From: an uncultured Candidatus Binatia bacterium
GTDB taxonomy: Bacteria > Desulfobacterota > Binatia > UBA9968 > JAJDTQ01
Length of the DNA: 36,621 nucleotides
NCBI GenBank assembly: GCA_965242525.1
Contig: CBDESP010000006.1
Span: 1-36,621, forward strand
Direction of reading: 5' to 3'
Shown here: piece after piece, positions 1 to 27,241 of the stretch
How positions within the stretch are numbered: the first letter of the stretch is position 1
Layout: the number at the start of each line of letters is the position of its first letter
The notes under the pieces: model-generated
Database searches by the model: none
What the model saw: only the letters and a program-made list of their open reading frames with translations
Told to the model about the DNA's origin: nothing
Made by a program: the position numbers and the translations under genes

Positions 1-2
1 CG

Positions 3-560
3 GCCGCGCTCTTCATCGGCGAATTCGGCCGTCTAGAGGAATCGGTGGTGCCGGGGATCAGGGTCAAGGACTTGCTCACGCCCCACTTCGTGCGCGACCG
101 ACTGCGCCAGCCTGAGAATAAGGGGCGCTTGGCCGAAGCGGTCGCAGGCGTTGAACTCGTAGGCGACCTGGGGTGGCACTCGCTGTTCGGGAAGCTCGGC
201 TACCGGGTCCAGCAGCTTCCCCGGCGCGGCTATCTGCTTCGACACGACGACAAGCCGGTGGCGGTGGTTCACCCTTACCGCAACCCATCCTTGTTCAGCC
301 GCCTCACTCGCAACGGCGAGCTGCCCGAGGGCCTGGTCCTAGCCGACTGCCAGAACCACGGGGCCCGGTGGGCGGTGCTGGCCTCTGAGAACCGCTACCG
401 GCTGTTCTCGAGCCAGCCGCCGGTGGGATCGGCGTCGGGCCAGTACGTCGAGCTGGAGGCGGGCGAACTGGGCCAGGAGAACCGCTTCTACTTGGGCCTT
501 CTCTCGCCAGAATCGCTGCGAGAGGGAGGCTGGCTCGCCGGATGGATCAAAGCGCCCTGA
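3..560 (+). pseudogene. Fragment resembling the N-terminal region of a fused Type IIG/IIL restriction-modification protein; 5' end outside window, stops before any methyltransferase motif
   Basis: Frame open from base 3. 'ARWAVLASENRYRLF' resembles the W-x-VL-TNG-x-x-WRLY segment preceding the helical/MTase domains of such enzymes; no GxG or NPPY motif before TGA at 558-560. Family call is inference. Confidence 0.45.
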
Positions 561-645
561 CTGCCTCAAGCCGATCTACGTTAGAATGCTTGCCATGTTA
601 AGATAAGATTTTTTAGGAAATTTCAGGATTTTTTCTGATATTAAG

Positions 646-681
646 TTGTCATTGTCACACCCCTGGTATAGAGTGATCTCA
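646..681 (+). promoter_or_regulatory. Promoter for DUF222 gene, probably leaderless; resembles the PafBC/RecA-NDp DNA-damage motif
   Basis: TTGTCA (646-651), 17-nt spacer, TAGAGT (669-674), ATG at 681. Also TGTCAC-N10-TAGAGT (653-674), versus the mycobacterial TGTCRG-N10-TANNNT. Confidence 0.55.
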
Positions 682-2105
682 TGGTCGTTGGAGTGGACGC
701 GGTGAAACGGTTCGGCGGGGAGCTGGACTGCCTGCTGGGCCGGGTGTGGGCCGGGGAGCTGCCCTTGGCCGGTCTCAAAGAACTGGTCGCGGCCAGCCAG
801 TCAGTAGAGGCCAAGATGGCGGTGCTGGTGACTGAGGCGGCCCGGTTGATCGCGCTGGGTGAGGGCCACGGCGACGGCGGGGCGTCGGTATTGTGCGATC
901 AGGGCGGCAAGTCCCGATCTGAGGCCCGCCGCCGCCTGACGGTGGCCGAGACACTCGATGCGATGCCCCAGGCCCGCACCGCGGTGGAAGCCGGGGAGGT
1001 GTCTTTGGCCAACGCCGAGCGCTTGGCCCAAGCAGCCAAGCGCACCGCCCCCGAGTCCGTGGACGCGGCCGCCGGCCTGTTGGAACAAGCCCGGGAGCTT
1101 CCACCGGACCAGTTCGCCCGCGAGGTCGACGCCTGGACCCAAAGCCAACAAGACGACCACGGCCACGGCGACTACCTGCGCCAGCGGGAGCGCCGCTACC
1201 TCAGAATCCGCAGGGACCGCGACAAGGTACGCATCGACGGCCAATACGACCTCGAAGCCGGCACCCGCATCGGGGCCCGCCTGCAGCGACTGGCCGAGGC
1301 CCTGCGCCGCCAAGACGACCAAGCCGCCCGCAACGGCGGCGGCAGTGAGGGCCGCCGGAGCTGGGACCAGCTCCAAGCCGATGCCCTCGACCAGCTCGCC
1401 TCCGGCGACACCGAACTGGGTGCCGGTCCCGGCGGCAGCAGATCCAGGGCCGAGGTGATCGTGGTGGCCGACATCGGTGCGCTCACCGGCCAGGACCCGT
1501 CCGGGCGCTGCGAGATCCCCGGTGCCGGGCCGGTGCCACCGTCGGTGCTTCAACGCATCGCCTGCGACGCCGAGCTGACCGGTGTGTTGTTCAGCGACGG
1601 CAAACCGCTGTATCACGGGGCTACGACGCGCACCGCCTCCAAAGCCCAGCGGCGGATGCTCATCGCCCGAGACGGCGGCTGCATCGGCTGCGGCGCCGAA
1701 CCCCGCTGGTGCCAAGCCCACCACATCATCCCCTACGCCCAATCCCGGAGAACCGACATCGACAACCTCGTGCTGGTCTGCTGGAAATGCCACCACAACA
1801 TCCACGACCACAACTGGCAAATCACCCACCACCACGGCAAACCCGCCCTCCAACCCCCCGACCGCCTCAAACCCCCCGGCCGCCACCGCCACGAAGGCCG
1901 CGGCCAGCACAACCGCCATCCCGATCACGGAGGCCGTAGCCAGCCCAACCGCCGCCCGCTGCCCGAGCCCAGCAGACCCCCTCCCACCGACCGAGCTGGC
2001 CCCAATCCCGACGGAGAAGCCCCAGTCCATCCAACTCTGGACCATCAACCAAGGCGAGGTCGAGGGACGAATCAAGAAAGAGCCCCAGCCCTCTTCCCGA
2101 CCTGA
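681..2105 (+). CDS. DUF222 (13E12-repeat family) HNH endonuclease
   Basis: Helical N-terminus with 'QLQADAL', 'RIACDA', then 'QRRMLIARDGGCIGCG..WCQAHHIIPY..TDIDNLVLVCWKCHHNIH' HNH/Zn motif; Pro/His-rich tail. Confidence 0.9.
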   Translation: MVVGVDAVKRFGGELDCLLGRVWAGELPLAGLKELVAASQSVEAKMAVLVTEAARLIALGEGHGDGGASVLCDQGGKSRSEARRRLTVAETLDAMPQARTAVEAGEVSLANAERLAQAAKRTAPESVDAAAGLLEQARELPPDQFAREVDAWTQSQQDDHGHGDYLRQRERRYLRIRRDRDKVRIDGQYDLEAGTRIGARLQRLAEALRRQDDQAARNGGGSEGRRSWDQLQADALDQLASGDTELGAGPGGSRSRAEVIVVADIGALTGQDPSGRCEIPGAGPVPPSVLQRIACDAELTGVLFSDGKPLYHGATTRTASKAQRRMLIARDGGCIGCGAEPRWCQAHHIIPYAQSRRTDIDNLVLVCWKCHHNIHDHNWQITHHHGKPALQPPDRLKPPGRHRHEGRGQHNRHPDHGGRSQPNRRPLPEPSRPPPTDRAGPNPDGEAPVHPTLDHQPRRGRGTNQERAPALFPT

Positions 2106-2125
2106 CCCGAACCGGGCCCAGAGAT

Positions 2126-2209
2126 GCGCCAGGCCGGGGGGTGGCACGGGGGCCAGGATTTCGCCGCTTGCCGGCGAAATCCGCGCCCGTGACAGGACCC
2201 GCTGGCCGG
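2126..2209 (+). repeat. ~84-bp structured element, copy 1 (REP-like or ncRNA)
   Basis: Inner perfect hairpin GGATTTCGCCG-CTTGC-CGGCGAAATCC (2156-2182) within outer CACGGG/CCCGTG pairing; flanks match the reverse complement of 7879-7960. Confidence 0.85.
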
Positions 2210-2270
2210 ACAAAGCAAACGCCAAGAAACTCTCGACGCTCCAGGCCGGGGGTAGCACGGAACCTGCCAG

Positions 2271-2326
2271 CCGGACAGAGCAACGGCCAGAACCGGACAG
2301 AGCGACCGCCAGAACGGAAACAGAGC
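2271..2326. repeat. 22-bp tandem repeat, about 2.5 copies
   Basis: ccggacagagcaacggccagaa / ccggacagagcgaccgccagaa / cggaaacagagc. Confidence 0.8.
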
Positions 2327-2385
2327 CCTGACGCCGGGAGGCGTTCAAGCTCAAGCCAGCCAAAGGCCGGTCTAACCTGTTCGAG

Positions 2386-5052
2386 GTGAGGCACGACTCC
2401 GGCGTCACCGAGTTTGTCTGCAACGGGGCGGCGGTGCGCGTCGGGGAGCATCCCCACCTGCTGGCCGCCCTGCGCGAGGAACTGGACTTGGTGGCGGCCA
2501 AGGACGGCTGCTCGCCGTCGGGGCAGTGCGGGGCCTGCACGGTGCTGCTCGACGGCAAGGCCAGGGTGGCCTGCCAAATCCCCCTGGAGAAGGCGGCCGG
2601 GGCCTCGGTGGTCACCCCCGAGGGGCTCAACCCCCGAGAGCGGGAACGCTTCGCCGCCGCCTTCGGGGCGGCCGGGGCGGTGCAGTGCGGGTTCTGCATC
2701 CCCGGGATCATCATGCGGGCCAAGGCCCTGATCGACCGGCACGGCCCCGACCTCACCCGGGAGCAGGCCTCCCGCCATCTGGGCGCCCACCTGTGCCGCT
2801 GCACCGGCTACCTCAAGATCCTCGACGCGGTGGACCTGCTGGCCTCCGGGGCCGACGGCCGCCCCGGACCGCCGCTGGAACCGGTGAAGGGGATCGGGTC
2901 CCGGTCGGCCCGCTACGAGTCCTTCGACCTCGCCCTGGGCGACAAGCTCTTCATCGACGACATGAAGGTCCCGGGCCTGCTGCACGGGGCGGTCCGGCTG
3001 GCCGACCACGCCCGGGCCGACGTGATCTCCATCGACACCGCCCCCGCCGAGGCCGCCCCCGGCGTGGTAAGGGTGTTCACCGCGGCCGACGTGTCCGGCG
3101 ATCTGCTGATCGGGCTCATCCACAAGGACTGGCCCGTGTTCGTCGGCGCCGGGGGCCGCACCGCCTACCTGGGCGACGTGATGGCCCTAGTGGTGGCCGA
3201 GGACCGCGAAGCCGCCCGGCGGGCTGCGGCCCTCATCGACATCGACTACCGGCCGCTGGCCCCCGTCACCGACCCCGAGGCCGCCGTCCTCCCCGGCGCC
3301 GAGGACGCGGTGGGCCACCTCGACGGCAACGTCTTGTCGGTGTCGGCCTACCGGCGGGGCGGCGACGTGGACGAGGCCCTGGCCCGCTCGGCCCACACCG
3401 TCACCGAGACGTTCCGCACCCAGCGGGTGGAGCAGGCCTTCCTGGAGCCCGAGTCCACCCTGGCCGTGCCCGTGACCGACGACGACCGCGGCGCCCGCCG
3501 CCTCGACGTGTATTCGGGGGGCCAGGGGGTGTGGGACGACCGGGATCAGATCGCGGCGGTGCTCGGGGTGGGCCCCGAGACGGTGCGGGTCACCCAGGTG
3601 GCCAACGGCGGGGCCTTCGGGGGCAAGGAGGACTGCTCCAACCAGGCCCAGACCGCCCTGGCCGCCTGGCTGCTCAACCGCCCGGTGAAGACCACCTTCT
3701 CCCGCGAAGAGTCCCTGTTGGTGCATCCCAAGCGCCACCCGGTGCGCATCCACCTTTCGGCGGGCTGCGACGCCGAGGGCCGCCTCACCGCCCTGCGGGC
3801 CCGGATGCTGGGCGACTCCGGCCCCTACGCCTCGGTGGGCATGAAGGTGCTGGAGCGGGCGGCCGGCCACGCCTGCGGCCCCTACGCCGTGCCGGTGGTG
3901 GACGTGGAGGCCGTCGCCGCCCGCACCAACAACAGCATCGGCGGCGCCTTCCGGGGCTTCGGGGCCAACCAGGCCCAGTTCGCGGCCGAGGGGGCCATGG
4001 ACCGCCTGGCCGCCGCGGTGGGGATCAGCGGCTGGGAGATCCGGTCCCGCAACGCGGTGGCGCCGGGGGCGGTGTGGGGGCCGGGCCAGGTCATGGACGA
4101 AGGCTGCGCCGGGGCCCGCCAGTGCCTCGACGCCGTCCGCCCCGCCTACGAGCAGGCCCGGGCCGCGGGCCAAGCCGTCGGCCTGGGGCTGGGCCTGAAG
4201 AACTCCGGGCTGGGCAACGGCTACGTCGAGGTGAGCCGGGCCGTGGTGCGTTTCGCCGCCGACCAGCGCCGCCCGCCGAGAACGCCAGCCGGGCCCGACA
4301 CCATGGTGGAGGTCCGCCACGGCTGGACCGAGATGGGCCAGGGGGTCCACACCGTGGCCCTTCAGGTGGCGGTGGCCGAGCTGGGCGTGAACCCCGATCG
4401 GGTGAGGGTGGTGGTGGACACCAGCCGCGAGCTGGGCGACGGCCAGACCACCGGGTCGCGGGGCACGCTCATGGGGGCGGGGGCGGTGGCCGACGCCTGC
4501 CGGGCCGCCGTGGCCGGGGGCCGCCTCACCGGGGTCGACTACGCCGGGGAGTACCGGGTGGACTGGACCAACAGCCTCGACGAGGGGGCCGAGAACCCGG
4601 TCATCCACTCCACCTTCTCCTATGCGGCCCAGGTGGTGGTGGCCGATCCGGCCACCGGCGAGATCGAGAAGGTGGTGGCCGCCCACGACGTGGGCCGGGC
4701 CGTCAACCCGCTGCTGTGCGAGGGCCAGATCGAGGGCAGCGTCCACATGGGCCTGGGCTACGCCCTGGGCGAGGACTTCCCCTGCGACGCCGACGGGCGG
4801 CCGGGGCCCGACACCCTGCGGGGCCTCAACATCATCCGGCCCAAGGACATGCCGCCGGTGGAGGTGATCCTCGTCGAGGCCCCCCAGCCTGACTCCCCCT
4901 ACGGCATCAAGGGGGTGGGCGAGATCGGCTTGGTGCCCACGGCCGGGGCGGTGGCCGAGGCCATGCGCCAGGTCGACGGCCAATGGCGCAACCGGCTCCC
5001 CATCGCCGCCCACCAGCCGGTGCCGGCGACGGCCTCGCCCGGGCGGGCGTGA
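2386..5052 (+). CDS. Molybdenum hydroxylase with fused 2x[2Fe-2S] and Mo-binding domains, no FAD domain (selenium-dependent xanthine dehydrogenase-like)
   Basis: GCSPSGQCGACTV, QCGFCIPG and LCRCTGY Fe-S motifs; GGAFGGK, AFRGFG, EMGQG and KGVGEIG Moco motifs. Confidence 0.9.
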   Translation: MRHDSGVTEFVCNGAAVRVGEHPHLLAALREELDLVAAKDGCSPSGQCGACTVLLDGKARVACQIPLEKAAGASVVTPEGLNPRERERFAAAFGAAGAVQCGFCIPGIIMRAKALIDRHGPDLTREQASRHLGAHLCRCTGYLKILDAVDLLASGADGRPGPPLEPVKGIGSRSARYESFDLALGDKLFIDDMKVPGLLHGAVRLADHARADVISIDTAPAEAAPGVVRVFTAADVSGDLLIGLIHKDWPVFVGAGGRTAYLGDVMALVVAEDREAARRAAALIDIDYRPLAPVTDPEAAVLPGAEDAVGHLDGNVLSVSAYRRGGDVDEALARSAHTVTETFRTQRVEQAFLEPESTLAVPVTDDDRGARRLDVYSGGQGVWDDRDQIAAVLGVGPETVRVTQVANGGAFGGKEDCSNQAQTALAAWLLNRPVKTTFSREESLLVHPKRHPVRIHLSAGCDAEGRLTALRARMLGDSGPYASVGMKVLERAAGHACGPYAVPVVDVEAVAARTNNSIGGAFRGFGANQAQFAAEGAMDRLAAAVGISGWEIRSRNAVAPGAVWGPGQVMDEGCAGARQCLDAVRPAYEQARAAGQAVGLGLGLKNSGLGNGYVEVSRAVVRFAADQRRPPRTPAGPDTMVEVRHGWTEMGQGVHTVALQVAVAELGVNPDRVRVVVDTSRELGDGQTTGSRGTLMGAGAVADACRAAVAGGRLTGVDYAGEYRVDWTNSLDEGAENPVIHSTFSYAAQVVVADPATGEIEKVVAAHDVGRAVNPLLCEGQIEGSVHMGLGYALGEDFPCDADGRPGPDTLRGLNIIRPKDMPPVEVILVEAPQPDSPYGIKGVGEIGLVPTAGAVAEAMRQVDGQWRNRLPIAAHQPVPATASPGRA

Positions 5053-5059
5053 CCCGGCC

Positions 5060-6109
5060 GTGACCGCCCCGACGCTCGGAGAGCCGGGCACCACGCCGGG
5101 GCTGGTTTGCGCCCATCATCATCTGTATTCGGCGCTGGCCCGGGGGATGCCCGCCCCGCCCCGCACCCCCCGGTCGTTCCTGGACATCCTGGAGCTGATC
5201 TGGTGGCGCCTGGACCGGGCCCTCGACCTCAACGCCATCGAATGGTCGGCCAAGCTGGGGGCGCTGGAGGCCCTGGAGTCCGGCACCACCGCCGTCATCG
5301 ACCACCACGAGTCACCCAACGCCATCGAAGGCTCCCTAGACGTCATCGCCGCCGCCTGCGCCGAGGTGGGCGTGAGGGTGGACTGCGCCTACGGCGTCAC
5401 CGACCGCCACGGCCCGGCCGGGGCCGCGGCTGGCCTGGCCGAGAACGACCGGTTCCTGCGGGCCGGGGGCCGGGGCCATGTCGGCGTCCACGCCGCCTTC
5501 ACCTGCTCGCCGGCCACCCTGGAGGCGGCCGCCGGGCTGGCCGCCGACCACGGAACCGGGGTCCACGTCCACGTGGCCGAGGGCCCCGACGACGCCGACG
5601 CCGGCCCGCGGCTGGCCCCCCTCGCCGCCGATAACTGGCTGCTGGTTCACGCCGTGCATCTCGACCGGGAGCTGCCGGGAACCATCGTTCACAATCCCCG
5701 GTCCAACATGAACAACGCGGTGGGCTACGCCCGGCCCGCGGCCCGGCCCAACCGGGTGGCGCTGGGCACCGACGGGATCGGGGCCGACATGCTCGACGAG
5801 TTCCGGCTGGTCTACGCCCGCCACCGCGAGGACGACGTGACCGCCACCCCGGAGACGGCCTGGGGGTGGCTGGAGACGGGCTGGGAGCTGTTCCCCGAGG
5901 CCCGGGCCGATGTGGTCCGCTGGTCCTACGGGGCCACCGACCCGTGGTCGCTGGCCTTCACCACCGGGGTGAGGGCCATGGACGCGACGGTGGACGGCGA
6001 GGCGGTGCTGGTAGACGGCCGCCCCACCCGGGTCAATCCCGACGAGATTCGGGCCAAGGCGGCCGAGGCCGCAACCCGGCTGTTCGCCCGGCTCGACGAG
6101 ATACCGTGA
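5060..6109 (+). CDS. SsnA-like metal-dependent amidohydrolase
   Basis: 'CAHHHLYSALARG', 'WWRLDRALD', 'GTTAVIDHHESP', 'HVHVAEG', 'HNPRSNMNNAVG', 'LGTDG'. Confidence 0.85.
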   Translation: MTAPTLGEPGTTPGLVCAHHHLYSALARGMPAPPRTPRSFLDILELIWWRLDRALDLNAIEWSAKLGALEALESGTTAVIDHHESPNAIEGSLDVIAAACAEVGVRVDCAYGVTDRHGPAGAAAGLAENDRFLRAGGRGHVGVHAAFTCSPATLEAAAGLAADHGTGVHVHVAEGPDDADAGPRLAPLAADNWLLVHAVHLDRELPGTIVHNPRSNMNNAVGYARPAARPNRVALGTDGIGADMLDEFRLVYARHREDDVTATPETAWGWLETGWELFPEARADVVRWSYGATDPWSLAFTTGVRAMDATVDGEAVLVDGRPTRVNPDEIRAKAAEAATRLFARLDEIP

Positions 6110-6231
6110 CCGCCCGCGCCGCCGCCATGACCGAACAGACCGCCGTCGCGACCGCCCGAGCCGACCGCTCCCCCACCCGGACCGTGACCGACCGCCACCA
6201 CCGTGACCGCCGCTGAAGCGAGGTATCTCCC

Positions 6232-7248
6232 ATGACCCGACCTGTGGCCATCTATCTCCAGGACGCCCACCCCGTCGGGGAGTCCATCGAGCATGTGCGC
6301 TACGCCGAGGCCAAGGGGTTCGAGGCGGTGTGGCAGGCCGACTGCCGGCTGGTGCGAGACGCAGTAGTGCCCATGGCCGCCTTCGCGGCCTGCACCGAGC
6401 GGATCCGCATCGGCAGCGGCGTGGTGGACTGCTGGACCCGCAACCCGGCCCGTATGGCCGCCACCTTCTCCACCCTCGACGACTTGGCCCCCGGTCGGAT
6501 CATCCTGGGCCTGGGGGCCTGGTGGGACCCGCTGGCCGCCCGGGTGGGGGTGAGCCGGGCCCGCCCGCTGAAGGCCATGCGGGAGATCGTGACCGCCTGC
6601 CGGGCCCTGCTCAACGACGAGACCGTCACCTTCGACGGCGAGTTCGTGCAGCTCGACGGGGCCGAGCTCGACTACGTCCAGCAGGAGCGCCGGCCCAAGG
6701 ATGTCCCCATCTACATCGGGGCCACCGGCATGAAGATGATGGCCCTCACCGGCGAGATCGCCGACGGGGTGGTGTTCAACTACCTGGTGTCGCCCCAGTA
6801 CAACCAGCAGGCCATGGAGGCCCTGGCCGAAGGGGCGGCCCGGGCCGGCCGGGGGGTGGACGACCTCGACCGGCCCCAGCTCGTGGTGTGCTCGGTGGCG
6901 TCGTCGGACTCCGAATCCGACCGCCGGGACGCCCTGGACGGGGCCCGGATGCTGGTCACCCAGTACCTGGGCCAGCAGCCCCACATCATGAAGGCGTCGG
7001 GGGTGCCCCGCAGCCTCCTCGACGAGGTGGGCTCGGTGCTGACCTGGCCCGCCACCCACGAGCAGGTGACGGCCGCCTCCAAGCTGGTGCCCGACGAGAT
7101 CGTGCAGATGCTGTGCGCGGCGGGCACGGCCGACGAGTGCCGGGACAAGGTGCTCCACTACATCGAAAACGGCTGCACCACCCCGGTGCTGTACCCGCTC
7201 GGCCCCGACCCTAAGGTGATGATCGACGCCTTCGCCGACTGGGACTGA
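6232..7248 (+). CDS. LLM-class (luciferase-like, Mer-type) oxidoreductase, possibly F420-dependent
   Basis: '[10 protein letters not shown]', '[10 protein letters not shown]', '[15 protein letters not shown]', '[21 protein letters not shown]'; RBS-like GAGG upstream. Confidence 0.9.
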
Positions 7249-7334
7249 GCACCGCCGATGCCCGAGCCAGCCAGACCCGAGCCGACCGCCCATGCCTGAG
7301 CCGGCTGACGACGAGCGCAAAGAGCCCGACACCG

Positions 7335-7847
7335 ATGCCTGAGCCGGCTGACGGCGAGCGCGAGGAGCTGGACTGGGAGTCCTACGGCCGGGCGGTGCGG
7401 GAGCTGGCGGTCATGGTGGCCGACGACGGCTACCGGGCCGACATGGTGCTGGCCATCGCCCGGGGCGGGCTGTTCTGCGCGGGCTCGCTGGGCTACGCCC
7501 TGTCGGTGAAGAACATCTACGTGATGAACTGCGAGTACTACACCGGGGTGGGCGAGCGGCTCCCGGTGCCGGTGATGCTGCCCCCCGCCGTCGATCTGGT
7601 GGACCACACCCACTCGAAGGTCCTGATCGCCGACGACGTGGCCGACACCGGCCACACCCTCAAGATGGTGAGGGACTTCTGCGTGGGGCGGGTGGGCGAG
7701 GTCCGCTCCGCGGTGCTGTACGAGAAGTCGCACTCGCTGGTGAAGTGCGACTACGTGTGGAAGCGCACCGACCGCTGGATCAACTTCCCGTGGTCGACGC
7801 TGCCGCCGGTGGCCGGCGCCCCCGACCAGTGGGTGCTCGACGCTTGA
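7335..7847 (+). CDS. Type I phosphoribosyltransferase (purine PRTase-like)
   Basis: 'LAIARGG', PRPP loop 'VLIADDVADTGHTL', C-terminal 'WINFPW'. Confidence 0.9.
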   Translation: MPEPADGEREELDWESYGRAVRELAVMVADDGYRADMVLAIARGGLFCAGSLGYALSVKNIYVMNCEYYTGVGERLPVPVMLPPAVDLVDHTHSKVLIADDVADTGHTLKMVRDFCVGRVGEVRSAVLYEKSHSLVKCDYVWKRTDRWINFPWSTLPPVAGAPDQWVLDA

Positions 7848-7878
7848 GAGTGCCAGCCTGCCCAGCCGGCGGGTCGTC

Positions 7879-7960
7879 CCGGCCGGCGGGTCCTGTCACG
7901 GGCGCGGTTTTGCCGCGGGGCGGCAAAACCTTGCCCCCGTGCCACCCACCGGCCTGGCGC
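7879..7960 (-). repeat. ~82-bp structured element, copy 2 (inverted relative to copy 1)
   Basis: Inner hairpin GGTTTTGCCGC-GGG-GCGGCAAAACC (7906-7930); flanks differ from copy 1 at 3 of 57 positions by manual alignment. Confidence 0.85.
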
Positions 7961-8045
7961 TTCGGCTTGTCTCGGCCTTTGCTCCGTCTGTTCCGTTACG
8001 GCTGACCGCTCCCCCTGCCTACGGGTGGCTGGATTGAAATTGAAG

Positions 8046-8059
8046 TAGAATCCGTTTCA
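8046..8059 (+). promoter_or_regulatory. -10 box for probable leaderless transcript
   Basis: TAGAAT at 8046-8051, 7 nt before ATG 8059; no SD sequence. Confidence 0.45.
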
Positions 8060-9339
8060 TGAGTCTGACTGACCGTTCTATCGATGTCTCTGGTCTTGAG
8101 ATCAATGGCGGGCGCCTTATGCGTAGGCTGCGGGAGCTGGCTGAGATCGGGCCTATTGACGGGGGCGGGGTCAGCCGGCTGGCCCTTACCGACGCCGACA
8201 AGGCCGGCCGGGACCTAGTAGTCACCTGGATGCGGGACCTGGGTCTGGAGGTGAGCGTCGACGCCATCGGCAACGTAGTGGCGACGGGGCCGGGCCGCGC
8301 CGACGGGCCGCCGGTTATGACCGGGTCCCACATCGACACGGTGGCCACCGGCGGGATATACGACGGCAACCTGGGGGTGCTGTCGGGCCTGGAGGTGATC
8401 GAAACCCTGGCCGAGCGGGGCCTCGTCACCGACCGGCCCCTGGCCGTGGCCTTCTTCACCAACGAGGAGGGGGCCCGGTTCCCGCCCGACATGATGGGCA
8501 GCCTCTGCTACGTGGGCGGGATGACCGTCGAGGAGGCCATGTCCACCGCCTCCGCCGACGGGGCGGTGGTGGGCGACGAGCTGGAGCGGATCGGCTACCG
8601 GGGGCCGATGCCGTGCCCCGGCCCGGCCCCCCACGCCTTCGTGGAGTACCACATCGAGCAGGGGCCGGTGCTGGAGGAGGAGGACGTCGCCATCGGCGCG
8701 GTGGAGGGGGTGCAGGGCATCTCCTGGACCGAGGTGACCATCGTGGGCCAGTCCAACCACGCCGGCACCACCCCCATGCGGCTGCGCCGCGACGCGGGCC
8801 TGGCCGCCGGGGAGGTGGCGGTGGCGGTGCGCCGCATCGCCTCCGAACTGGGCGGCGACCAGGTGGGCACGGTCGGGTCGATCCGCCTGCACCCCAGCCT
8901 GGTCAACGTGGTGGCCGCTCGGGCGGTGGTCACCGTCGATCTGCGCAACACCGACGAGCAGGCCCTCCAGGAGGCCGAGCGCCGCCTGGCCGCCGAGCTG
9001 GACCGGCTGGCCGAGGCCGAGGGCGTGACCATCACCACCCGGTCCACGGCCCGGTTCGAGCCGGTGACCTTCGACCCGGCGGTGGTGGATCTGGTGGCCG
9101 CCACCGCCGCCGACATGGGCCTGTCGGTGCGGCGCATGCCGTCGGGGGCGGGCCACGACGCCCAGATGATGGCCAGGGTCTGCCCCACCGGCATGGTCTT
9201 CGTGCCCAGCGTCAAGGGGATCAGCCACAACCCGGCCGAGCACACCGAGCCCGAGGACCTGGTGGCCGGGGCCAACGTCCTGCTCCGCACCCTGGTGAAG
9301 CTGGCCACCATCGACGGCGACGCCGACCCCGGAACCTGA
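8059..9339 (+). CDS. M20 Zn-dependent hydrolase (N-carbamoyl-amino-acid / allantoate amidohydrolase family)
   Basis: 'GSHIDTV..GG.YDGNLGV', 'NEEGARF', 'EYHIEQGP', 'NHAGTTPM', 'SGAGHDAQ', 'SHNPAE'. Confidence 0.92.
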   Translation: MSLTDRSIDVSGLEINGGRLMRRLRELAEIGPIDGGGVSRLALTDADKAGRDLVVTWMRDLGLEVSVDAIGNVVATGPGRADGPPVMTGSHIDTVATGGIYDGNLGVLSGLEVIETLAERGLVTDRPLAVAFFTNEEGARFPPDMMGSLCYVGGMTVEEAMSTASADGAVVGDELERIGYRGPMPCPGPAPHAFVEYHIEQGPVLEEEDVAIGAVEGVQGISWTEVTIVGQSNHAGTTPMRLRRDAGLAAGEVAVAVRRIASELGGDQVGTVGSIRLHPSLVNVVAARAVVTVDLRNTDEQALQEAERRLAAELDRLAEAEGVTITTRSTARFEPVTFDPAVVDLVAATAADMGLSVRRMPSGAGHDAQMMARVCPTGMVFVPSVKGISHNPAEHTEPEDLVAGANVLLRTLVKLATIDGDADPGT

Positions 9340-9353
9340 CGGAGCGCCTCCCT

Positions 9354-10454
9354 ATGACCGCACGGGCCGCCGTCACCGGCTGGGGCAAATGCACCCCCCC
9401 GGTGAAGCTCACCAACGCCGACCTCGAGCGCCTGGTCGACACCAGCGACGAGTGGATCACCGACCGCACCGGCATCCGCGAGCGCGGCATCTCCCACGTG
9501 GAGGTCACCGACATGGCCGAGGTGGCCGCCCGCCAGGCTTTGGCCGCGGCCGGGCTCGAGCCGGCCGACCTGGACTTGGTGGTGGTGTCCACCATGTCGC
9601 CCGAGATCGTCTGCCCCAGCACGGCCTGCCTGCTGCAGGAGCGGCTGGAGGCGGTTAACGCGGCGGGCTTCGACGTGAACGCGGCCTGCAGCGGCTGGGT
9701 GTACGGCACCGCGGCCGCGGCCTCGATGATCGCGGCCGGCGCGGCCGGGCGGGCGCTGCTGGTGGGGGCCGAGAAGCTGCACTGGATCATGGACTACTGG
9801 GACCGCTCCACCTGCGTGCTGTTCGGCGACGGGGCCGGGGCGGTGGTGCTGGAGCCGGCGGCGGGCGACGAGGGGGTGCTGGGCATCGACCTGGGCGCCG
9901 ACGGGAAGGCCGGGCGGACCATGGTGATCCCCACCATGGGCACCCGGGGCTCGCTGACCGCCGAGCGCAACCCGTATGACCACTACTTCCACTTCGAGGG
10001 CCAGGCTGTGTTCAAGATCGCGGTCAAGGGCATGGAGGCCTCGGTGCGGCGGGTGCTGGACCGGGCCGGGCTGGCGCCGGGCGACGTGGATCTGGTGGTG
10101 CCCCATCAGGCCAACAAGCGGATCATCGACGCGGTGGTGAACCGGCTGGGCGTCGACCCGGAGCGGGTGATGGTCAACATCGCCACCCACGCCAACACCG
10201 CGGCCGCTTCCATTCCCATGGCCCTGAACGACGCGCTGGACCAGGGCCGGGTGGGGCCGGGGTCGGTGATCGTGCAGACCGCCTTCGGAGGCGGGGTCAC
10301 CTGGGGCTCCACCGCCATCCGCTGGGGCGAGCGGACCGAGCCCCTGGGCTCCTCCGACTTCGAGCTGCCCCCCTGCGACAAGCCGGTGTTCGAGCTGCTG
10401 CGGGCCAGCCGGGAGTTCTTCGGCCCCATGCACGGCAAAAATCAGATTACTTGA
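9354..10454 (+). CDS. fabH: 3-oxoacyl-ACP synthase III
   Basis: 'DTSDEWITDRTGIRER', catalytic 'AACSG', 'LFGDGAGA', 'VPHQAN.RI', 'ANTAAASIP', 'FGGGVTWG'. ATG 9354 lies within the longer called ORF. Confidence 0.93.
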   Translation: MTARAAVTGWGKCTPPVKLTNADLERLVDTSDEWITDRTGIRERGISHVEVTDMAEVAARQALAAAGLEPADLDLVVVSTMSPEIVCPSTACLLQERLEAVNAAGFDVNAACSGWVYGTAAAASMIAAGAAGRALLVGAEKLHWIMDYWDRSTCVLFGDGAGAVVLEPAAGDEGVLGIDLGADGKAGRTMVIPTMGTRGSLTAERNPYDHYFHFEGQAVFKIAVKGMEASVRRVLDRAGLAPGDVDLVVPHQANKRIIDAVVNRLGVDPERVMVNIATHANTAAASIPMALNDALDQGRVGPGSVIVQTAFGGGVTWGSTAIRWGERTEPLGSSDFELPPCDKPVFELLRASREFFGPMHGKNQIT

Positions 10455-11688
10455 TACTGCCTTCATGAAGTCTACTATTATGGACTTCAAGGAACCACCA
10501 TATGATCTAGGCAGCTTTGATGAAATAGCTCATAAGCGAGGAGCTAGAGGAGGTCAAGTAGAAGAATTTAGTGCTGGCTTTGAAGCTTGTGTAAGGTACA
10601 AAGCTCAAGACTCAAAATCATATAGCTTCAATGTTAGCTTTATAAGGCAAAACACTATACCAGTACCTAAACTAAAAGTGTACTCTCATAATAAATCATC
10701 TATTGAAGAACACTTTAGAGGAGGCGAGGTTTCTAAGATCGTAGTAAAGACCCAAAGAGGGGCATGGGAAATGAAAGCAAACAACCAGAGACGTATCAGA
10801 AACAGTATATCCTATGCACACATGAATATACAGCTTCCAACATTAATGGCCTACGGTATATCATCCCTAGATTATTCTGATTTTGTGCCTCTAGATCCTG
10901 GTGGTAGTGATATTAGCGAAACGGACATAAAAGCAATAGAAGAGGTCATTACGGTGGCATTGTTTACACCCGATCAACAACCACACGCAACTGCTCCAGT
11001 TCGTTCTAAGCCAAAACGAACTTATGATACATCCAAGTATGTATCTGACCCTGAGGGTGATTATATACCTATGCTCTTAGCTAATATGGCTTCTTCTGAT
11101 CCAAATGAGTGGCAAAAATTCAAGAAATCTCTTGAATTATTTGGTAAAGAAGCAGCGGTCTCTTTGACGAAATACGTATCAACAAGTTAGGTCGTAACCC
11201 TAGCGAACCTTTTCAAATACAAATGAGAAAGCATAATGGAAGATATAAAGGTTCTTACCATAATATGATTGACACAGGCTATGGGGTGAGCCAGGTTCTG
11301 CCTGTCATTACAGAGTTACGTCATCAAGGTACGGGGATAGGTTTTATTGCAACAACCAGAGGTCCATCTTCATCCTAAAGCCCAAGCAGCTCTTGGCAGC
11401 CTATTTTGTGGGTTGGTAAAAGATAGTTACCAAGTTATAGTTGAGACCCATAGCGATTACTTGATTGACAGAATTCGCATGGAAGTCAGAGAGGGAACCT
11501 TGACTCCTGAAGATGTATCACTCATTTTTTCTGAACGAGTCGGATTGGATATAAAAATCAGTTCGCTTGGATTTGATAAAGAAGGCAACGTAGTTGGATT
11601 AGACCAGGATGGCAATATCATTGAAGTTCCAACCAGCTACCGACAATTCTTCATGGAAGAAATGCAGAGATCCTTAGGTTTAGACTGA
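10441..11688 (+). pseudogene. AAA_21/ABC-type ATPase (DUF3696-like C-terminus), 5'-truncated, with two frameshifts
   Basis: Low GC. Three frames join into ..FGKE/SGLFDEI..DTGYGVSQVLPVI../LLQQPEVHLHPKAQ..VIVETHSDYLIDR. Shifts near 11153 and 11340; no Walker A. Confidence 0.8.
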
Positions 11689-12162
11689 TGTGCGCCATTC
11701 TGGATGCAAATGTGGCACATGAAGTATTCAATGAAACCACTGAAGCTGGACGCGAATTTCTGAGATGGGTCATGTCAGGAAGTGGCCGCTTAATAACTGG
11801 GGGCAAAAATTGGTCGGAGTTAGGTGAACGTAAAAAGATCTATCAGACAGCTAGTTTTAGCTGGAAAAGTACGAGTACGACAAGAAGATAGTGGAAGGAT
11901 AGCCGATATAGCCCAGCGACTTACGCAGGACGGCTCATGCGCATCTGACGATGAACATATCATTGCATTAGCTCAGGTCAGCGGTGCTAGACTGCTGTAC
12001 ACCAACGATCAGCTACTACAGAAGGACTTTGATAAGAAAGAGCTGATTGATAAACCGCGTGGCAAGGTATATTCTACACACAAGACCGATGGATATGATA
12101 ACTCTAGGTTTGATGAAGCCAAGAGGCGACTTCTGAACAGAAATCCGTGCCAACAAACATAG
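11688..12162 (+). pseudogene. PIN-like domain protein, one frameshift near 11830
   Basis: N-terminal 'ILDANV' and C-terminal 'SDDEHIIALA..ARLLYTND..L' PIN motifs split across two frames; start overlaps the ATPase stop (TGATG). Confidence 0.7.
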
Positions 12163-24837: not shown

Positions 24838-26003
24838 AGCCCGCGGGTTCCGGCGCCCAGCAGCGGGGCCAGGGTGTCGGCATAGACCTCCGTGGACCGG
24901 TCCGGATGCAACTCCGCCGCCCTGACCCGCCCGGCCGCTACCAGCCGATCCCGCAGCGCGCCGTCCTCAAGCACTCGACCGACCGCGGCCGCCACCACTG
25001 CGGGCGACTTGTCCCCCAACAACACCCCCGCACCCCCCAACGTCCCAGCCACCGCCCCCGCGTCAAACGCCACCACCGGCAACCCCGCCCCCATCGCCTC
25101 CGCCAACGGCACCCCGAAACCCTCATGATCCGACAAACACACAAACACATCCGCCACCGAATACCACCCCGCCAACACCGAACCCGAAACCGACCCCGCC
25201 CAAACCACCGAATCCCCCAAACCCAAGTCCTCGGCCAGCCCTCGCAACGCCACCCCATAGGACCCACCCGCATCAGAACCCGCCAACACCAACCGCGGCC
25301 CCTCACCCCACAACCCCCTGAACACCGCAAACGCGGCCAACAAATCATGAAAACCCTTATTCGGAACCACCCGCCCCACAAACAACCACACCGGCCCCGC
25401 CCCCGAACCCAACCCCCCCGCCGACCCGACACCCCCGACCGGCTCAGCGCCACCGGACGACACCCCGCCACCAGCACCAGCCGCCCCGTCAACCGCGGCC
25501 CCGCCCGCAGACCCGTCAACCGGGTCGGTCCACACCGCCGTGTTGAACAACGGTGGCGCCACCACCACCTCATCAACTCCCGCCGCCGCCAACTCCGAAG
25601 CCGCGAACCCTGAATCGGCCAACCCCAGCCCCGCCAACGGCCCCAACCGCCCCAACTGACCTCGACCCCAGCGGAGCTGGTTGACCAGCTCGGGAGGGAC
25701 CCAGGGTTCTGCCATCTCGGGCGGGGTGATGGAGTGGTAGTCGAGCACCACCCGAACCCGGCGCTCGATCACCGCCTCGGCAACCACCGAGCCGATGGCG
25801 TGCTGGAGCACGGTGACAGCGGCATCGCCGGGCCAGAGGCGCAGGCCAGCGGCGGAGTGAGACCGGCCGAAGTCGGTGATATTCCCCACGTACAGTCGCA
25901 CGGTCGCGCCGAAGCGGTCGGCCAGCAGGTTCCGCAGCCTCAGCGTGTGGGCTGAGACCGCGTCCCGGTCGGCCAGTTCCGGCACCAGCAGATCGACGAT
26001 CAT
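24834..26003 (-). CDS. Glycosyltransferase family 4
   Basis: 'LFVGRVVPNKG', 'SDHEGFGVPLAEAM'; 4-nt overlaps with both neighbours. Confidence 0.9.
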   Translation of the reverse strand: MIVDLLVPELADRDAVSAHTLRLRNLLADRFGATVRLYVGNITDFGRSHSAAGLRLWPGDAAVTVLQHAIGSVVAEAVIERRVRVVLDYHSITPPEMAEPWVPPELVNQLRWGRGQLGRLGPLAGLGLADSGFAASELAAAGVDEVVVAPPLFNTAVWTDPVDGSAGGAAVDGAAGAGGGVSSGGAEPVGGVGSAGGLGSGAGPVWLFVGRVVPNKGFHDLLAAFAVFRGLWGEGPRLVLAGSDAGGSYGVALRGLAEDLGLGDSVVWAGSVSGSVLAGWYSVADVFVCLSDHEGFGVPLAEAMGAGLPVVAFDAGAVAGTLGGAGVLLGDKSPAVVAAAVGRVLEDGALRDRLVAAGRVRAAELHPDRSTEVYADTLAPLLGAGTRGL

Positions 26004-26575
26004 CGGCTTCGGGGCTTCAAGAGCGGCCCCAGGGCGTCGGCGTAAGTCACGGCGGACCGGTACGGGTGAAGTTGCGCCGCCCGGTGGCGCCCAGCGGCCG
26101 TCAGCCGATCCCGCAAAACGCCGTCCTCAAGCACCCGACCGACCGCGGCCGCCACCACCGCCGGCGACTTGTCCCCCAACAACACCCCCGCACCCCCCAA
26201 AGTCCCAGCCACCGCCCCCGCGTCGAAGGCCACCACCGGCAAACCCGCCCCCATCGCCTCCACCAACGGCACCCCGAAACCCTCATGATCCGACAAACAC
26301 ACAAACACATCCGCCGCCGAATACCACCCCGCCAACACCGAACCCGAAACCGACCCCGCCCACACCACCGAATCCCCCAAACCCAAGTCCTCCGCCAAAG
26401 CCCTCAACGCCACCCCATAGGACCCACCCGCATCAGAACCAGCCAACACCAACCGCGGCCCCTCCCCCCACAACCCCCGAAACACCGCAAACGCAGCCAA
26501 CAAATCATGAAAACCCTTATTCGGAACCACCCGCCCCACAAACAACCACACCGGACCCGCCCCCGAACCCAACCC
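24942..26575. repeat. Near-identical direct repeat of ~475 bp (24942-25415 and 26102-26575)
   Basis: Gap-free alignment at offset 1160 with scattered substitutions; a shorter shared block at about 25545-25660 / 26630-26745. Confidence 0.9.
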
Positions 26576-27241
26576 AGCCCGCAAAACCGAAACCACCCCC
26601 GTGTCAACCGCCCAAACCCCCGCCGCGTCGAACAACGGTGGCGCCACCACCACCTCTCCAACCCCCGACCCCGCCAACTCCGAAGCCGCGAATCCCGAAC
26701 CCGCCAGCCCCAACCCCGCCAACGGACCCAACCGCCCCAACTGAACCCGGCCCCAACCGGCCGCTGAGGCCATGGCCGGGTCCCAGCCGTCGAAGTGCTC
26801 GGCCGGGGTCACGCCGTGGTAGTAGACCACCAGCGGCTCGGGCCGGGTCAGCAGATAGTCGGCCACCGGAGAGCCCACCGAGGCCTGGTAGATCACTAGG
26901 TCGGGCCGGGGCCACTCGGGGTGGTCGCGGAAGTCGCGGGCCAGCCGCCGGGTCGCCCCCACCCGCTGGGCCGCGAAGATCTCAGCGTCGCAGCCCAAGT
27001 CCTCGGCCAGCAGCCGGTGCAGGGCCAGAGTGTGGGCCCCCACCGCATCCCGGTCGGCCAAAACCGCGGTGAATTGGTGAACCTGCGGCCGCCGGACCGA
27101 GGCAGTCGGACCGGGGCCGCCGAGTTGCGGCCGCCGAGTTGCGGCCGCCGAGTTGCGGCCGCCGGACCGCGGCCGCCGAGTCAGGGCCGCCAGACCGGAG
27201 CGGACGGCGACACCAGCCGACCCAGCCAGCGGCCGGGTCAC
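26000..27241 (-). CDS. Glycosyltransferase family 4, paralogue of the adjacent gene
   Basis: 'LFVGRVVPNKG', 'SDHEGFGVPLVEAM'; GTG overlaps the upstream stop. Confidence 0.9.
   Translation of the reverse strand: MTRPLAGSAGVAVRSGLAALTRRPRSGGRNSAAATRRPQLGGPGPTASVRRPQVHQFTAVLADRDAVGAHTLALHRLLAEDLGCDAEIFAAQRVGATRRLARDFRDHPEWPRPDLVIYQASVGSPVADYLLTRPEPLVVYYHGVTPAEHFDGWDPAMASAAGWGRVQLGRLGPLAGLGLAGSGFAASELAGSGVGEVVVAPPLFDAAGVWAVDTGVVSVLRAGLGSGAGPVWLFVGRVVPNKGFHDLLAAFAVFRGLWGEGPRLVLAGSDAGGSYGVALRALAEDLGLGDSVVWAGSVSGSVLAGWYSAADVFVCLSDHEGFGVPLVEAMGAGLPVVAFDAGAVAGTLGGAGVLLGDKSPAVVAAAVGRVLEDGVLRDRLTAAGRHRAAQLHPYRSAVTYADALGPLLKPRSR
27115..27198. repeat. 14-bp tandem repeat inside the 5' end of a GT4 gene
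   Basis: GGCCGCCGAGTTGC three times exactly, then three degenerate GGCCGCC-N7 units. Confidence 0.85.

What the first reader, a model, noticed from the sequence alone, without database searches (positions are those of the whole stretch)
2126..7960. Covarying ~83-bp structured element downstream of DUF222-HNH, repeated inverted so that it brackets the purine operon
Seen: 2126-2209 and the reverse complement of 7879-7960 share 30-nt and 27-nt flanks with only 3 mismatches, while the central 11-bp stems differ in sequence yet both pair perfectly (GGATTTCGCCG/CGGCGAAATCC vs GGTTTTGCCGC/GCGGCAAAACC). The flanks extend the stem (CACGGG..CCCGTG, GGGT..ACCC). Copy 1 starts 20 nt after the HNH stop; a partial third copy (CCAGGCCGGGGGTAGCACGG, 2241-2260) and 22-bp tandem repeats follow. 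Inference: compensatory change indicates selection on structure. It could be an ncRNA partner, or a hairpin end/substrate of the DUF222-HNH element, with copy 2 a non-autonomous copy. I know of no defined cis element or RNA for DUF222 proteins. The inverted pair could also make the enclosed four-gene operon invertible or mobile.
Basis: partly seen in the sequence, partly recalled or inferred. Interest (0 to 1): 0.8.

Follow-up and report, generated by a model that had tools for sequence, protein, structure and literature searches.

The report
Hairpin repeat tied to HNH genes
The two inverted 83-base hairpins belong to a large, apparently undescribed family of dispersed hairpin repeats in Acidimicrobiia that sits in a fixed inverted layout around one clade of DUF222-HNH nuclease genes, which makes it the first candidate DNA end or substrate for these genes.

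Summary
Copies at 2126-2209 (+) and 7879-7960 (-) are 87% alike. Both fold into long hairpins (z about -5), and their central stems differ but both pair.

They are not a private pair. A pattern scan found the element (HE) dozens of times in Acidimicrobiia genomes: 65 exact-pattern copies in G061, 38 in G101, and 35 of 107 genomes of that family have a match. The window contig is about 91% identical and syntenic to G061, and it is compositionally foreign to the rest of its own assembly.

Across 100 copies the stem is kept by compensatory changes. There is no Rfam match, and G061 has no RAYT (Y1) transposase.

The link to DUF222-HNH is real but clade-specific. HEs lie upstream in opposite orientation and just downstream in the same orientation of these genes. 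11 of 65 HEs in G061 and 27 of 38 in G101 lie within 500 nt of or inside DUF222-HNH genes, against about 1 expected. Other DUF222 clades have no such ends (0 of 23).

- Copy 1 is the right-end hairpin of such a unit.
- Copy 2 is a solo copy, also present at the orthologous site in G061.
- The "bracketing" of the operon is coincidental.

The mechanism (the nuclease acting on the hairpin ends) is inferred, not shown.

The parts
605..680 (+). Conserved 5' leader of the DUF222-HNH unit. It holds a promoter-like site (646-674) that ends 7 nt before the ATG.
   Evidence: DNA homology to the G061 paralogs starts at about 605. The leader aligns across 17 paralogs. One promoter-like site was found, TTGTCA-17-TAGAGT, against 0.2 expected. 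No upstream hairpin is present in the window.
681..2105 (+). DUF222-HNH nuclease gene (474 aa). The zinc-binding Cys residues and the HNH His/Asn residues are conserved.
   Evidence: Pfam DUF222 1.2e-21 and HNH 4.8e-9. Invariant residues in a 42-sequence alignment: C334, C337, C344, H347, H348, C367, H371, H375. It forms an orthologous trio with G061 L135 and G101 L168 (support 100/98).
2126..2209 (+). Hairpin element copy 1 (B-type central stem). It is the right-end hairpin of the HNH unit, in the same orientation as the gene and 20 nt after its stop.
   Evidence: Fold -57.4 kcal/mol, z -4.89. Covariance-model match at 2123-2212, 90.5 bits. The same position and orientation are seen after HNH genes in G061 (L136, L155, L160) and at 10 of 10 G101 loci with a downstream copy.
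2210..2331 (+). Tail and 'stutter' region: the conserved tail motif, a degenerate internally deleted element copy (2241-2275) and 22-nt tail repeats (2271-2315).
   Evidence: The same tail and partial 3'-arm duplications follow many solo copies. One metagenome contig replaces 2224-2370 with 16 other letters, so this stretch varies between strains.
7879..7960 (-). Hairpin element copy 2 (A-type central stem, the dominant type in G061). It is a solo copy lying 31 nt after the phosphoribosyltransferase stop.
   Evidence: Fold -61.2 kcal/mol, z -5.11. Covariance-model match at 7876-7963, 108 bits. An orthologous copy sits at G061:C1:2642640-2642723 inside a block that is 91.7% identical.
7848..7878 (-). 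Tail of copy 2, with a partial duplicate of the 3' arm.
   Evidence: Read directly. The pattern is the same as for other solo copies.
2386..7847 (+). Four enclosed genes (molybdoenzyme, amidohydrolase, luciferase-like monooxygenase, phosphoribosyltransferase). These are context only, not part of the element.
   Evidence: Pfam. The gene block is syntenic in G061-G065. G061 has no hairpin upstream of it.

Best explanation
Shown: the 83-nt sequences are two members of a dispersed, REPIN/MITE-like family of long imperfect hairpin repeats (HE) native to one family of Acidimicrobiia. In the lineage the window contig comes from, HEs flank one clade of DUF222-HNH gene units in inverted orientation. 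One HE lies about 110-330 nt upstream in the opposite orientation. One lies just after the stop codon in the same orientation. Copy 1 is the right-end hairpin of such a unit whose left hairpin is missing. Copy 2 is a solo copy.

Inferred: the DUF222-HNH nuclease recognises and cuts or nicks the hairpin, either as an extruded cruciform or as single-stranded DNA. This would drive copying of whole units and, in trans, of solo hairpins, either by transposition or by break-induced gene conversion between copies.

The pair around the four metabolic genes has no joint function.
For: Family and distribution:
96 carry the family flanks and 3 are chance look-alikes.
- Exact-pattern counts are 65 in G061 and 38 in G101, with 0 for the reversed control pattern.
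- 35 of 107 genomes of G061's family have a match.

The hairpin is maintained:
- 97.2% of pair cells are paired, against 91.3% in shuffles (0 of 500 reach it) and 36-45% when the partners are slid.
- 11 pairs changed on both sides, against 5.5 in shuffles.

Link to HNH genes:
- 11 of 65 HEs in G061 (expected 0.96, Poisson 7e-9) and 27 of 38 in G101 (expected 0.83, 2e-31) lie within 500 nt of or inside DUF222-HNH loci.
- Upstream copies are in the opposite orientation at 6 of 7 loci in G061 and 9 of 9 in G101.
- Downstream copies are in the same orientation at 3 of 3 loci in G061 and 10 of 10 in G101, and also in the window.
- Two units in G061 and five in G101 are flanked on both sides.
- The upstream hairpin joins the conserved leader at a fixed junction.
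- HNH units without a downstream hairpin still carry the hairpin's outer flank motifs.

No other candidate enzyme:
- HNH is the only nucleic-acid enzyme family that recurs beside HEs in G061 (7 of 47 loci).
- G061 has no Y1/RAYT transposase, while the control search rang in 6 of 14 genomes.

Coupled expansion:
- HNH paralogs burst separately in G061 (a clade of 12, support 100/99) and in G101. Each burst carries that genome's own stem type.
- At a positionally orthologous locus the arms are the same but the central stem is swapped.
Against: - 0 of 29 HE loci from other genomes have an HNH homologue within 2 kb. Several of those copies sit at conserved orthologous sites. The family is therefore older than, and can exist without, this association.
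- 0 of 23 DUF222-HNH genes of other clades have inverted ends or an exceptional hairpin.
- 8 of 16 close paralogs in G061 have no intact HE within 1.5 kb.
- No target-site duplication and no clean empty-versus-filled site was found.
- Paralogous units are not independent events, and the null model places HEs uniformly over the genome, so the P values overstate the case.
- The stem type follows the genome rather than the HNH lineage in the window/L135/L168 trio.
- HNH nucleases are not known transposases (recalled, not tested).
- No protein structure or binding evidence could be obtained.
Confidence: 0.55

Rival explanations
1. The hairpin is an independent REP-like element. It either serves the host (mRNA 3'-end stabiliser, insulator or protein-binding site) or is moved by an unidentified enzyme. 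An ancestral HNH unit happened to lie between two copies, or inserts beside them, so the hairpins multiply as passengers or targets of the HNH unit and not as its substrate.
For: - Solo copies lie mostly just after stop codons (median 38 nt). Of 57 copies with gene calls on both sides, 22 are between convergent genes, 30 between co-directional genes and only 5 between divergent genes.
- Low-copy, positionally conserved copies without HNH neighbours occur in other genera (0 of 29).
- Other DUF222 clades lack such ends (0 of 23).
Against: - 54 of 65 near-identical copies in G061 are away from HNH genes, so the hairpin multiplies on its own.
- The orientation is fixed on both sides of the HNH genes.
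- The hairpin also sits in frame inside a further HNH subclade.
- No other enzyme recurs beside it, and there is no RAYT.
- There is no U-tract or terminator-like site (0 found).
Confidence: 0.25
2. The hairpin downstream of the gene is transcribed and acts as an RNA partner of the nuclease (a scaffold in the manner of IscB/TnpB omega-RNAs) or as a 3'-UTR regulator.
For: - The downstream copy is always co-oriented with the gene and starts 4-35 nt after the stop.
- The element strand folds better than its complement in 93 of 93 distinct copies (mean -59.9 against -52.5 kcal/mol), with 49 G-U pairs against 10.
- The HNH domain's nearest named relatives include IscB, but only over the HNH domain (30.8 bits against a cut-off of 175; PDB hits).
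Against: - The upstream copy is antisense to the gene.
- Solo copies follow genes in either orientation (32 same, 46 opposite).
- The sequence after the hairpin is a conserved tail, not a variable guide.
- There is no RuvC domain.
- The strand asymmetry is largely inherited from one consensus, so it reflects few independent events.
Confidence: 0.1
3. The inverted pair makes the four-gene block a composite transposon or an invertible segment.
For: Two inverted copies, 87% alike, lie 5.7 kb apart around the block.
Against: - G061 has the same block in the same order and orientation with only the downstream hairpin. The upstream HNH gene and hairpin are replaced there by 10.5 kb of other genes.
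- G062-G065 keep the gene block at about 80% identity.
- The only inverted pairs about 1.8 kb apart in G061 enclose HNH genes.
- No strand-changing joints were listed when metagenome contigs were laid on the region. This is weak, because contigs break at the repeats.
Confidence: 0.02

Closest known systems
REPIN-RAYT systems (REP doublets forming hairpins, with their REP-associated tyrosine transposase)
   Same: Both are dispersed extragenic hairpin repeats of about 80-110 nt with conserved arms, present in tens of near-identical copies. In both, the associated enzyme gene is flanked by inverted copies. In both, persistence is mostly vertical with lineage-specific sequence types. (The definition is taken from the abstracts listed.)
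   Different: G061 has no Y1/RAYT gene. The flanked gene is a DUF222-HNH nuclease and is multi-copy (23 loci in G061, 31 in G101), whereas RAYTs are single-copy.
MITEs with an autonomous parent (for example RUP, Correia or ERIC-type elements; recalled, not tested)
   Same: Short non-autonomous copies share their ends with a longer coding unit. They are intergenic, and each genome has its own subfamilies.
   Different: Each end of the coding unit is itself a complete hairpin, not half of one. No target-site duplication was seen. The parent encodes no known transposase family.
REP13E12 / '13E12 repeat' DUF222-HNH genes of mycobacteria
   Same: The protein architecture is the same (Pfam DUF222 + HNH), and the genes are multi-copy and treated as a repeat or possible mobile element (passages read in PMC10589994).
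   Different: No cis element or hairpin end is described in the papers found. Here the hairpins are confined to one Acidimicrobiia clade.
IS200/IS605-type elements with IscB/TnpB and omega-RNA
   Same: Hairpin-bearing ends, a nuclease gene followed by a structured element in the same orientation, and a related HNH domain.
   Different: There is no RuvC domain and no Y1 transposase. The ends are inverted copies of one hairpin. There is no variable guide. The IscB model scores 30.8 bits against a cut-off of 175.
Rickettsia palindromic elements (recalled)
   Same: The element is also found inserted in frame inside protein-coding genes and is translated.
   Different: Here the host genes are themselves DUF222-HNH genes, and most copies are intergenic.

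Membership tests
REPIN-RAYT | Dispersed extragenic palindromic repeats that form a long hairpin | tested here: met
   65 and 38 exact-pattern copies in two genomes. Folds at z about -5. 65 of 78 copies lie outside crude gene calls.
REPIN-RAYT | A RAYT (Y1 transposase, PF01797) gene in the genome, flanked by the repeats | tested here: not met
   0 matches in the complete G061 chromosome. The same search rang in 6 of 14 control genomes.
MITE derived from an autonomous element | A longer coding element bounded by the same sequences in inverted orientation | tested here: met
   HNH units are flanked on both sides in G061 (L136: 82-nt inverted match at 98.8%; L155) and in five G101 loci.
MITE derived from an autonomous element | Target-site duplication and empty-versus-filled sites | tested here: inconclusive
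   The window-versus-G061 differences are multi-kilobase replacements, not clean insertions. HNH 3' ends with and without the hairpin core look like filled and empty (or deleted) states.
MITE derived from an autonomous element | The parent encodes a recognised transposase | tested here: not met
   Only DUF222 and HNH domains were found. Only the HNH domain matches solved structures.
IscB/TnpB-omega-RNA | RuvC-containing RNA-guided nuclease that reaches the family score | tested here: not met
   NCBIfam guided_IscB scores 30.8 bits against a cut-off of 175, over the HNH region only.
Any Rfam family | A match at the gathering score | tested here: not met
   0 matches over the whole window at the gathering threshold. 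At E <= 5 over 2000-8200 the only hit is an unrelated weak tRNA-Sec match at 6879-6972.
Intrinsic terminator | A GC-rich hairpin followed by a T-run | tested here: not met
   0 terminator-like sites in 500-8300, against 2.0 in shuffles.
DUF222-HNH (REP13E12-like) gene family | DUF222 domain followed by an HNH domain, above the Pfam cut-offs | tested here: met
   77.8 bits (cut-off 24.4) and 36.7 bits (cut-off 21.4).
DUF222-HNH (REP13E12-like) gene family | Hairpin ends as a general property of the family | tested here: not met
   0 of 23 genes of other clades (35-45% identity) have inverted ends within 600 nt or an outstanding downstream hairpin.

The most novel reading that the evidence does not exclude
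DUF222-HNH proteins, or at least this clade, are a new kind of mobile-element nuclease. The nuclease recognises structured hairpin ends. Its own gene is bounded by two such hairpins, and it also spreads or homogenises solo hairpins in trans. This would be an HNH-based counterpart of the RAYT-REPIN or transposase-MITE relationship. It would give the first mechanistic handle on the REP13E12-type repeats of actinobacteria.
Probability: 0.35. Interest if true: 0.85.

Novelty: new variant of a known kind. Interest (0 to 1): 0.68.

Why it matters
DUF222-HNH genes are among the commonest multi-copy genes of unknown function in Actinobacteria. In the Acidimicrobiia family searched here, 102 of 107 genomes carry them. 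They have long been called repeats or possible mobile elements, but no ends, substrate or mechanism have been described.

This work provides:
- a defined 83-nt hairpin with strongly conserved asymmetric arms;
- a covarying central stem;
- a fixed inverted position around one clade of these genes;
- solo copies that have expanded and switched type genome by genome.

Binding, cleavage and mobility can therefore be tested directly with a short oligonucleotide and one protein. It also adds a hairpin repeat family that lacks a RAYT to the short list of bacterial REPIN-like systems.

Tried and rejected
- Earlier findings were not open.
There is therefore no fold evidence on the DUF222 domain.

Searches that gave nothing useful:
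- No RNA holder was listed for the region.
- Laying contigs of four DNA runs gave no strand-changing joints and no clean empty site. Contigs break at the repeats, so this says little. The bins holding the hairpins had 20-50 times the depth of their neighbours, which the tool warns is not a copy number.
- The 27 genomes of the assembly's own genus share no synteny with window 1-12000. 60 relatives gave only weak 19-36-nt partial matches.
- The hairpin was not found in viral contigs with two patterns or in plasmids by BLAST.

Methods that failed:
- RNAalifold on a plain MAFFT alignment missed the central stem, because stems of different length were misaligned. I replaced it with a covariance-model alignment, which leans towards the structure.
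- The window-versus-G061 comparison gave no single-element insertion to define boundaries.

Readings rejected:
- The composite-transposon or invertible-operon reading (see rivals).
- The terminator reading.

Other neighbours of the hairpin:
- ABC ATPase genes (5 loci) and FG-GAP surface-protein genes (4 loci) recur beside it, but neither is a nucleic-acid enzyme.
Full report
The two copies, 2126-2209 (+) and 7879-7960 (-), align at 86.9% over 84 nt (alignment). The flanks are nearly identical. The central stems differ in sequence, yet both pair. Each element strand folds far better than shuffles: -57.4 and -61.2 kcal/mol, z -4.9 and -5.1, with 0 of 200 shuffles as good. Copy 1 starts 20 nt after the stop of a DUF222-HNH gene (681-2105). 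A degenerate partial copy and a 22-nt tandem repeat follow it. Rfam has no match. There are no tRNAs and no terminator-like sites.

**The pair is not private to this contig.** In the window's own assembly these are the only copies, and the HNH gene is the only DUF222-HNH.
- Three loci are chance look-alikes without the family flanks (L061, L093, L115).
- The other 96 are in Acidimicrobiia MAG records, and more than half lie in one chromosome, here called G061.
- The two motifs in the pattern are invariant by construction. Conservation claims therefore rest on the rest of the arms.
- A slightly looser pattern gives 65 copies in G061 and 38 in G101, with 0 for the reversed control.
- A covariance model (R1) finds the element in 35 of 107 genomes of G061's family.
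- It was not found in viral contigs or in plasmids.

**The window contig is Acidimicrobiia DNA.** It is collinear with G061:C1:2625958-2673181 at 79-93% identity. It has no synteny with the 27 genomes of the genus to which its assembly is assigned. Its tetranucleotide profile lies 0.0246 from the mean of the main contig, whose own windows lie at 0.0067 +/- 0.0019 (maximum 0.0123). It lies only 0.0048 from the syntenic G061 region. The contig is therefore most likely foreign to the bin. This explains why the assembly has just two hairpins and one HNH gene.

**The structure is maintained.** I aligned 100 copies from several genomes to the model and counted pairs.
- 97.2% of pair cells are standard pairs, against 91.3% in shuffles (0 of 500 reach it).
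- When the partners are slid by 1-3 columns, only 36-45% are paired.
- 11 of 31 pairs changed on both sides (shuffles 5.5). Seven of these are in the central helix, where U-A, C-G and G-C alternate between stem types.
- Caveats: the alignment is fitted to the structure, and the copies fall into a few types (A as in window copy 2, B as in copy 1, C in other genera, D in G101). Independent events are therefore few.
- The arms contain conserved asymmetric bulges.
- The element strand folds better than its complement in 93 of 93 distinct copies, with 49 G-U pairs against 10. This hints at a single-stranded form, but the asymmetry is mostly inherited from one consensus.

**Solo copies behave like REP elements.** I examined 78 copies that have 2-kb flanks.
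- 13 overlap crude gene calls, mostly at gene ends.
- Of 57 with called genes on both sides, 22 lie between convergent genes, 30 between co-directional genes and 5 between divergent genes.
- The median distance from the preceding stop codon is 38 nt.
- Orientation relative to that gene is 32 same and 46 opposite.
- Many copies are followed by a conserved tail and by partial duplicates of the 3' arm, as in the window.

**The DUF222-HNH link is real and stereotyped.**

G061 has 23 DUF222-HNH loci. The layout among its 16 close paralogs of the window gene is:
- Six have a hairpin 175-334 nt upstream in the opposite orientation.
- One more has a weak hit (score 25.7) upstream, in the same orientation.
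- Two have a hairpin right after the stop in the same orientation. A more distant paralog (L160) and the window gene show the same.
- Two are flanked on both sides (L136: 82-nt inverted match at 98.8%).
- Eight have no intact copy, although two of those keep partial arms.

G101 shows the same layout:
- 14 of 15 close paralogs have a hairpin.
- Upstream copies are in the opposite orientation at 9 of 9 loci.
- Downstream copies are in the same orientation at 10 of 10 loci.
- Five loci are flanked on both sides, one of them with a partial upstream copy.

Counted from the hairpin side:
- 11 of 65 copies in G061 lie within 500 nt of or inside DUF222-HNH loci (0.96 expected).
- 27 of 38 copies in G101 do so (0.83 expected).
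- The null model places hairpins uniformly, and duplicated units are not independent. The P values (7e-9 and 2e-31) are therefore upper bounds on the significance.

Further points:
- The upstream hairpin joins a conserved leader at a fixed junction.
- HNH units that lack the downstream hairpin still carry the hairpin's outer flank motifs at the same place.
- HNH is the only nucleic-acid enzyme that recurs beside hairpins in G061 (7 of 47 loci).
- The G061 chromosome has no Y1/RAYT transposase.

**Limits of the link.**
- In other genomes of the family, hairpins are few and often at orthologous sites. None of 29 such loci has an HNH homologue within 2 kb.
- DUF222-HNH genes are nevertheless multi-copy in 102 of 107 genomes.
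- 23 genes of other DUF222 clades show no inverted ends or outstanding hairpins.
- The hairpin family therefore predates the association, and the association is specific to the clade found in G061, G101 and the window organism.

**Dynamics.**
- The HNH tree shows a G061-only clade of 12 paralogs (support 100/99) and G101-only groups.
- It also shows an older trio made of the window gene, G061 L135 and G101 L168 (support 100/98).
- The hairpins beside these genes carry the type of the genome they are in: A in G061, D in G101, and B beside the window gene.
- At one positionally orthologous locus the convergent flanking gene aligns closely between G061 and G101. The hairpin arms and tail are shared, but the central stem is wholly different, A against D.
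- This needs either conversion from other copies or repeated insertion at the same site. In either case the turnover is active and tied to these loci.
- A further HNH subclade carries a D-type hairpin in frame inside the gene, translated, in both genomes.

**What the window shows.**
- Copy 1 is the right-end hairpin of an HNH unit. The unit keeps its promoter-proximal leader (605-680), with a promoter-like site at 646-674 ending 7 nt before the ATG. It has no left hairpin.
- Copy 2 is a solo copy after the phosphoribosyltransferase gene. It is conserved at the orthologous G061 site.
- In G061 the HNH gene and copy 1 are absent, 10.5 kb of other genes lie in their place, and no hairpin lies upstream of the molybdoenzyme gene.
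- The 'bracketing' of the four genes is therefore coincidental.

**Mechanism (inferred).** I consider it most likely that the nuclease acts on the hairpin ends. HNH-fold enzymes that cut branched or cruciform DNA are known (recalled, not tested). The HNH domain here has its metal-binding and catalytic residues conserved. Its closest solved relatives are the HNH domains of a group II intron maturase, IscB and McrA. Nothing here shows binding or cleavage.

**Literature.**
- 28 papers mention DUF222 and 22 mention REP13E12 (search listings). The passages I read in PMC10589994 list REP13E12/HNH/DUF222 only as a repeat class.
- Searches for HNH endonuclease together with REP sequences returned only that same work (the paper and its preprint), and a search for '13E12 repeat' together with HNH returned none. 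A search for Acidimicrobiia together with palindromic repeats found no description of such a repeat in the listing.
- The REPIN/RAYT definitions come from the abstracts.
- I read no supplements.

Noticed in passing
window 1-36621 (whole contig C7): The contig is compositionally foreign to its assembly. Its tetranucleotide distance to the main contig is 0.0246, against 0.0067 +/- 0.0019 for the main contig's own windows. It is 79-93% identical and collinear with G061. It is probably a mis-binned Acidimicrobiia contig.
   Followed up: yes
L161:1386-1457, L162:1359-1442, L224:1987-2076: A D-type hairpin lies in frame inside a separate DUF222-HNH subclade, in both G061 and G101, and is read through as about 30 residues. 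This resembles Rickettsia palindromic elements.
   Followed up: partly
window 24862-25436 and 26022-26598: A 579-nt direct repeat, 90% identical, lies within the contig. G061 has matching duplicated segments.
   Followed up: no
window 605-680; G061 HNH loci L135-L159: All paralogs share an AT-rich leader with a small palindrome over the -35 region, a stop codon 9 nt before the ATG, and a -10-like hexamer 7 nt before the ATG (likely a leaderless mRNA). Between this leader and the upstream hairpin lie one to three repeats of about 55 nt, each with its own small hairpin.
   Followed up: partly
G091:C1:160944-161235 and 179228-179517: Hairpin copies occur in tandem arrays with a 100-nt period in another genome of the family.
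   Followed up: no
L050, L065, L085, L104 (G061): Four paralogous FG-GAP/cadherin-like surface-protein genes each have a hairpin about 180-310 nt upstream of their start.
   Followed up: partly
L156 (G061:C1:1673820-1677473): One HNH unit begins right after what look like two tRNA genes. This was read by eye and not checked with ARAGORN.
   Followed up: no
window 2101-2450 and 7701-8050: In four metagenome runs, the contigs covering the hairpin bins have 20-50 times the summed depth of neighbouring bins. The 3' half of the HNH gene has about 5 times in run X1 (2-4 times in X4 and X5, about 1-2 times in X10). This fits multi-copy repeats in the source communities (several labelled sponge metagenome), but depth is not a copy number.
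   Followed up: partly
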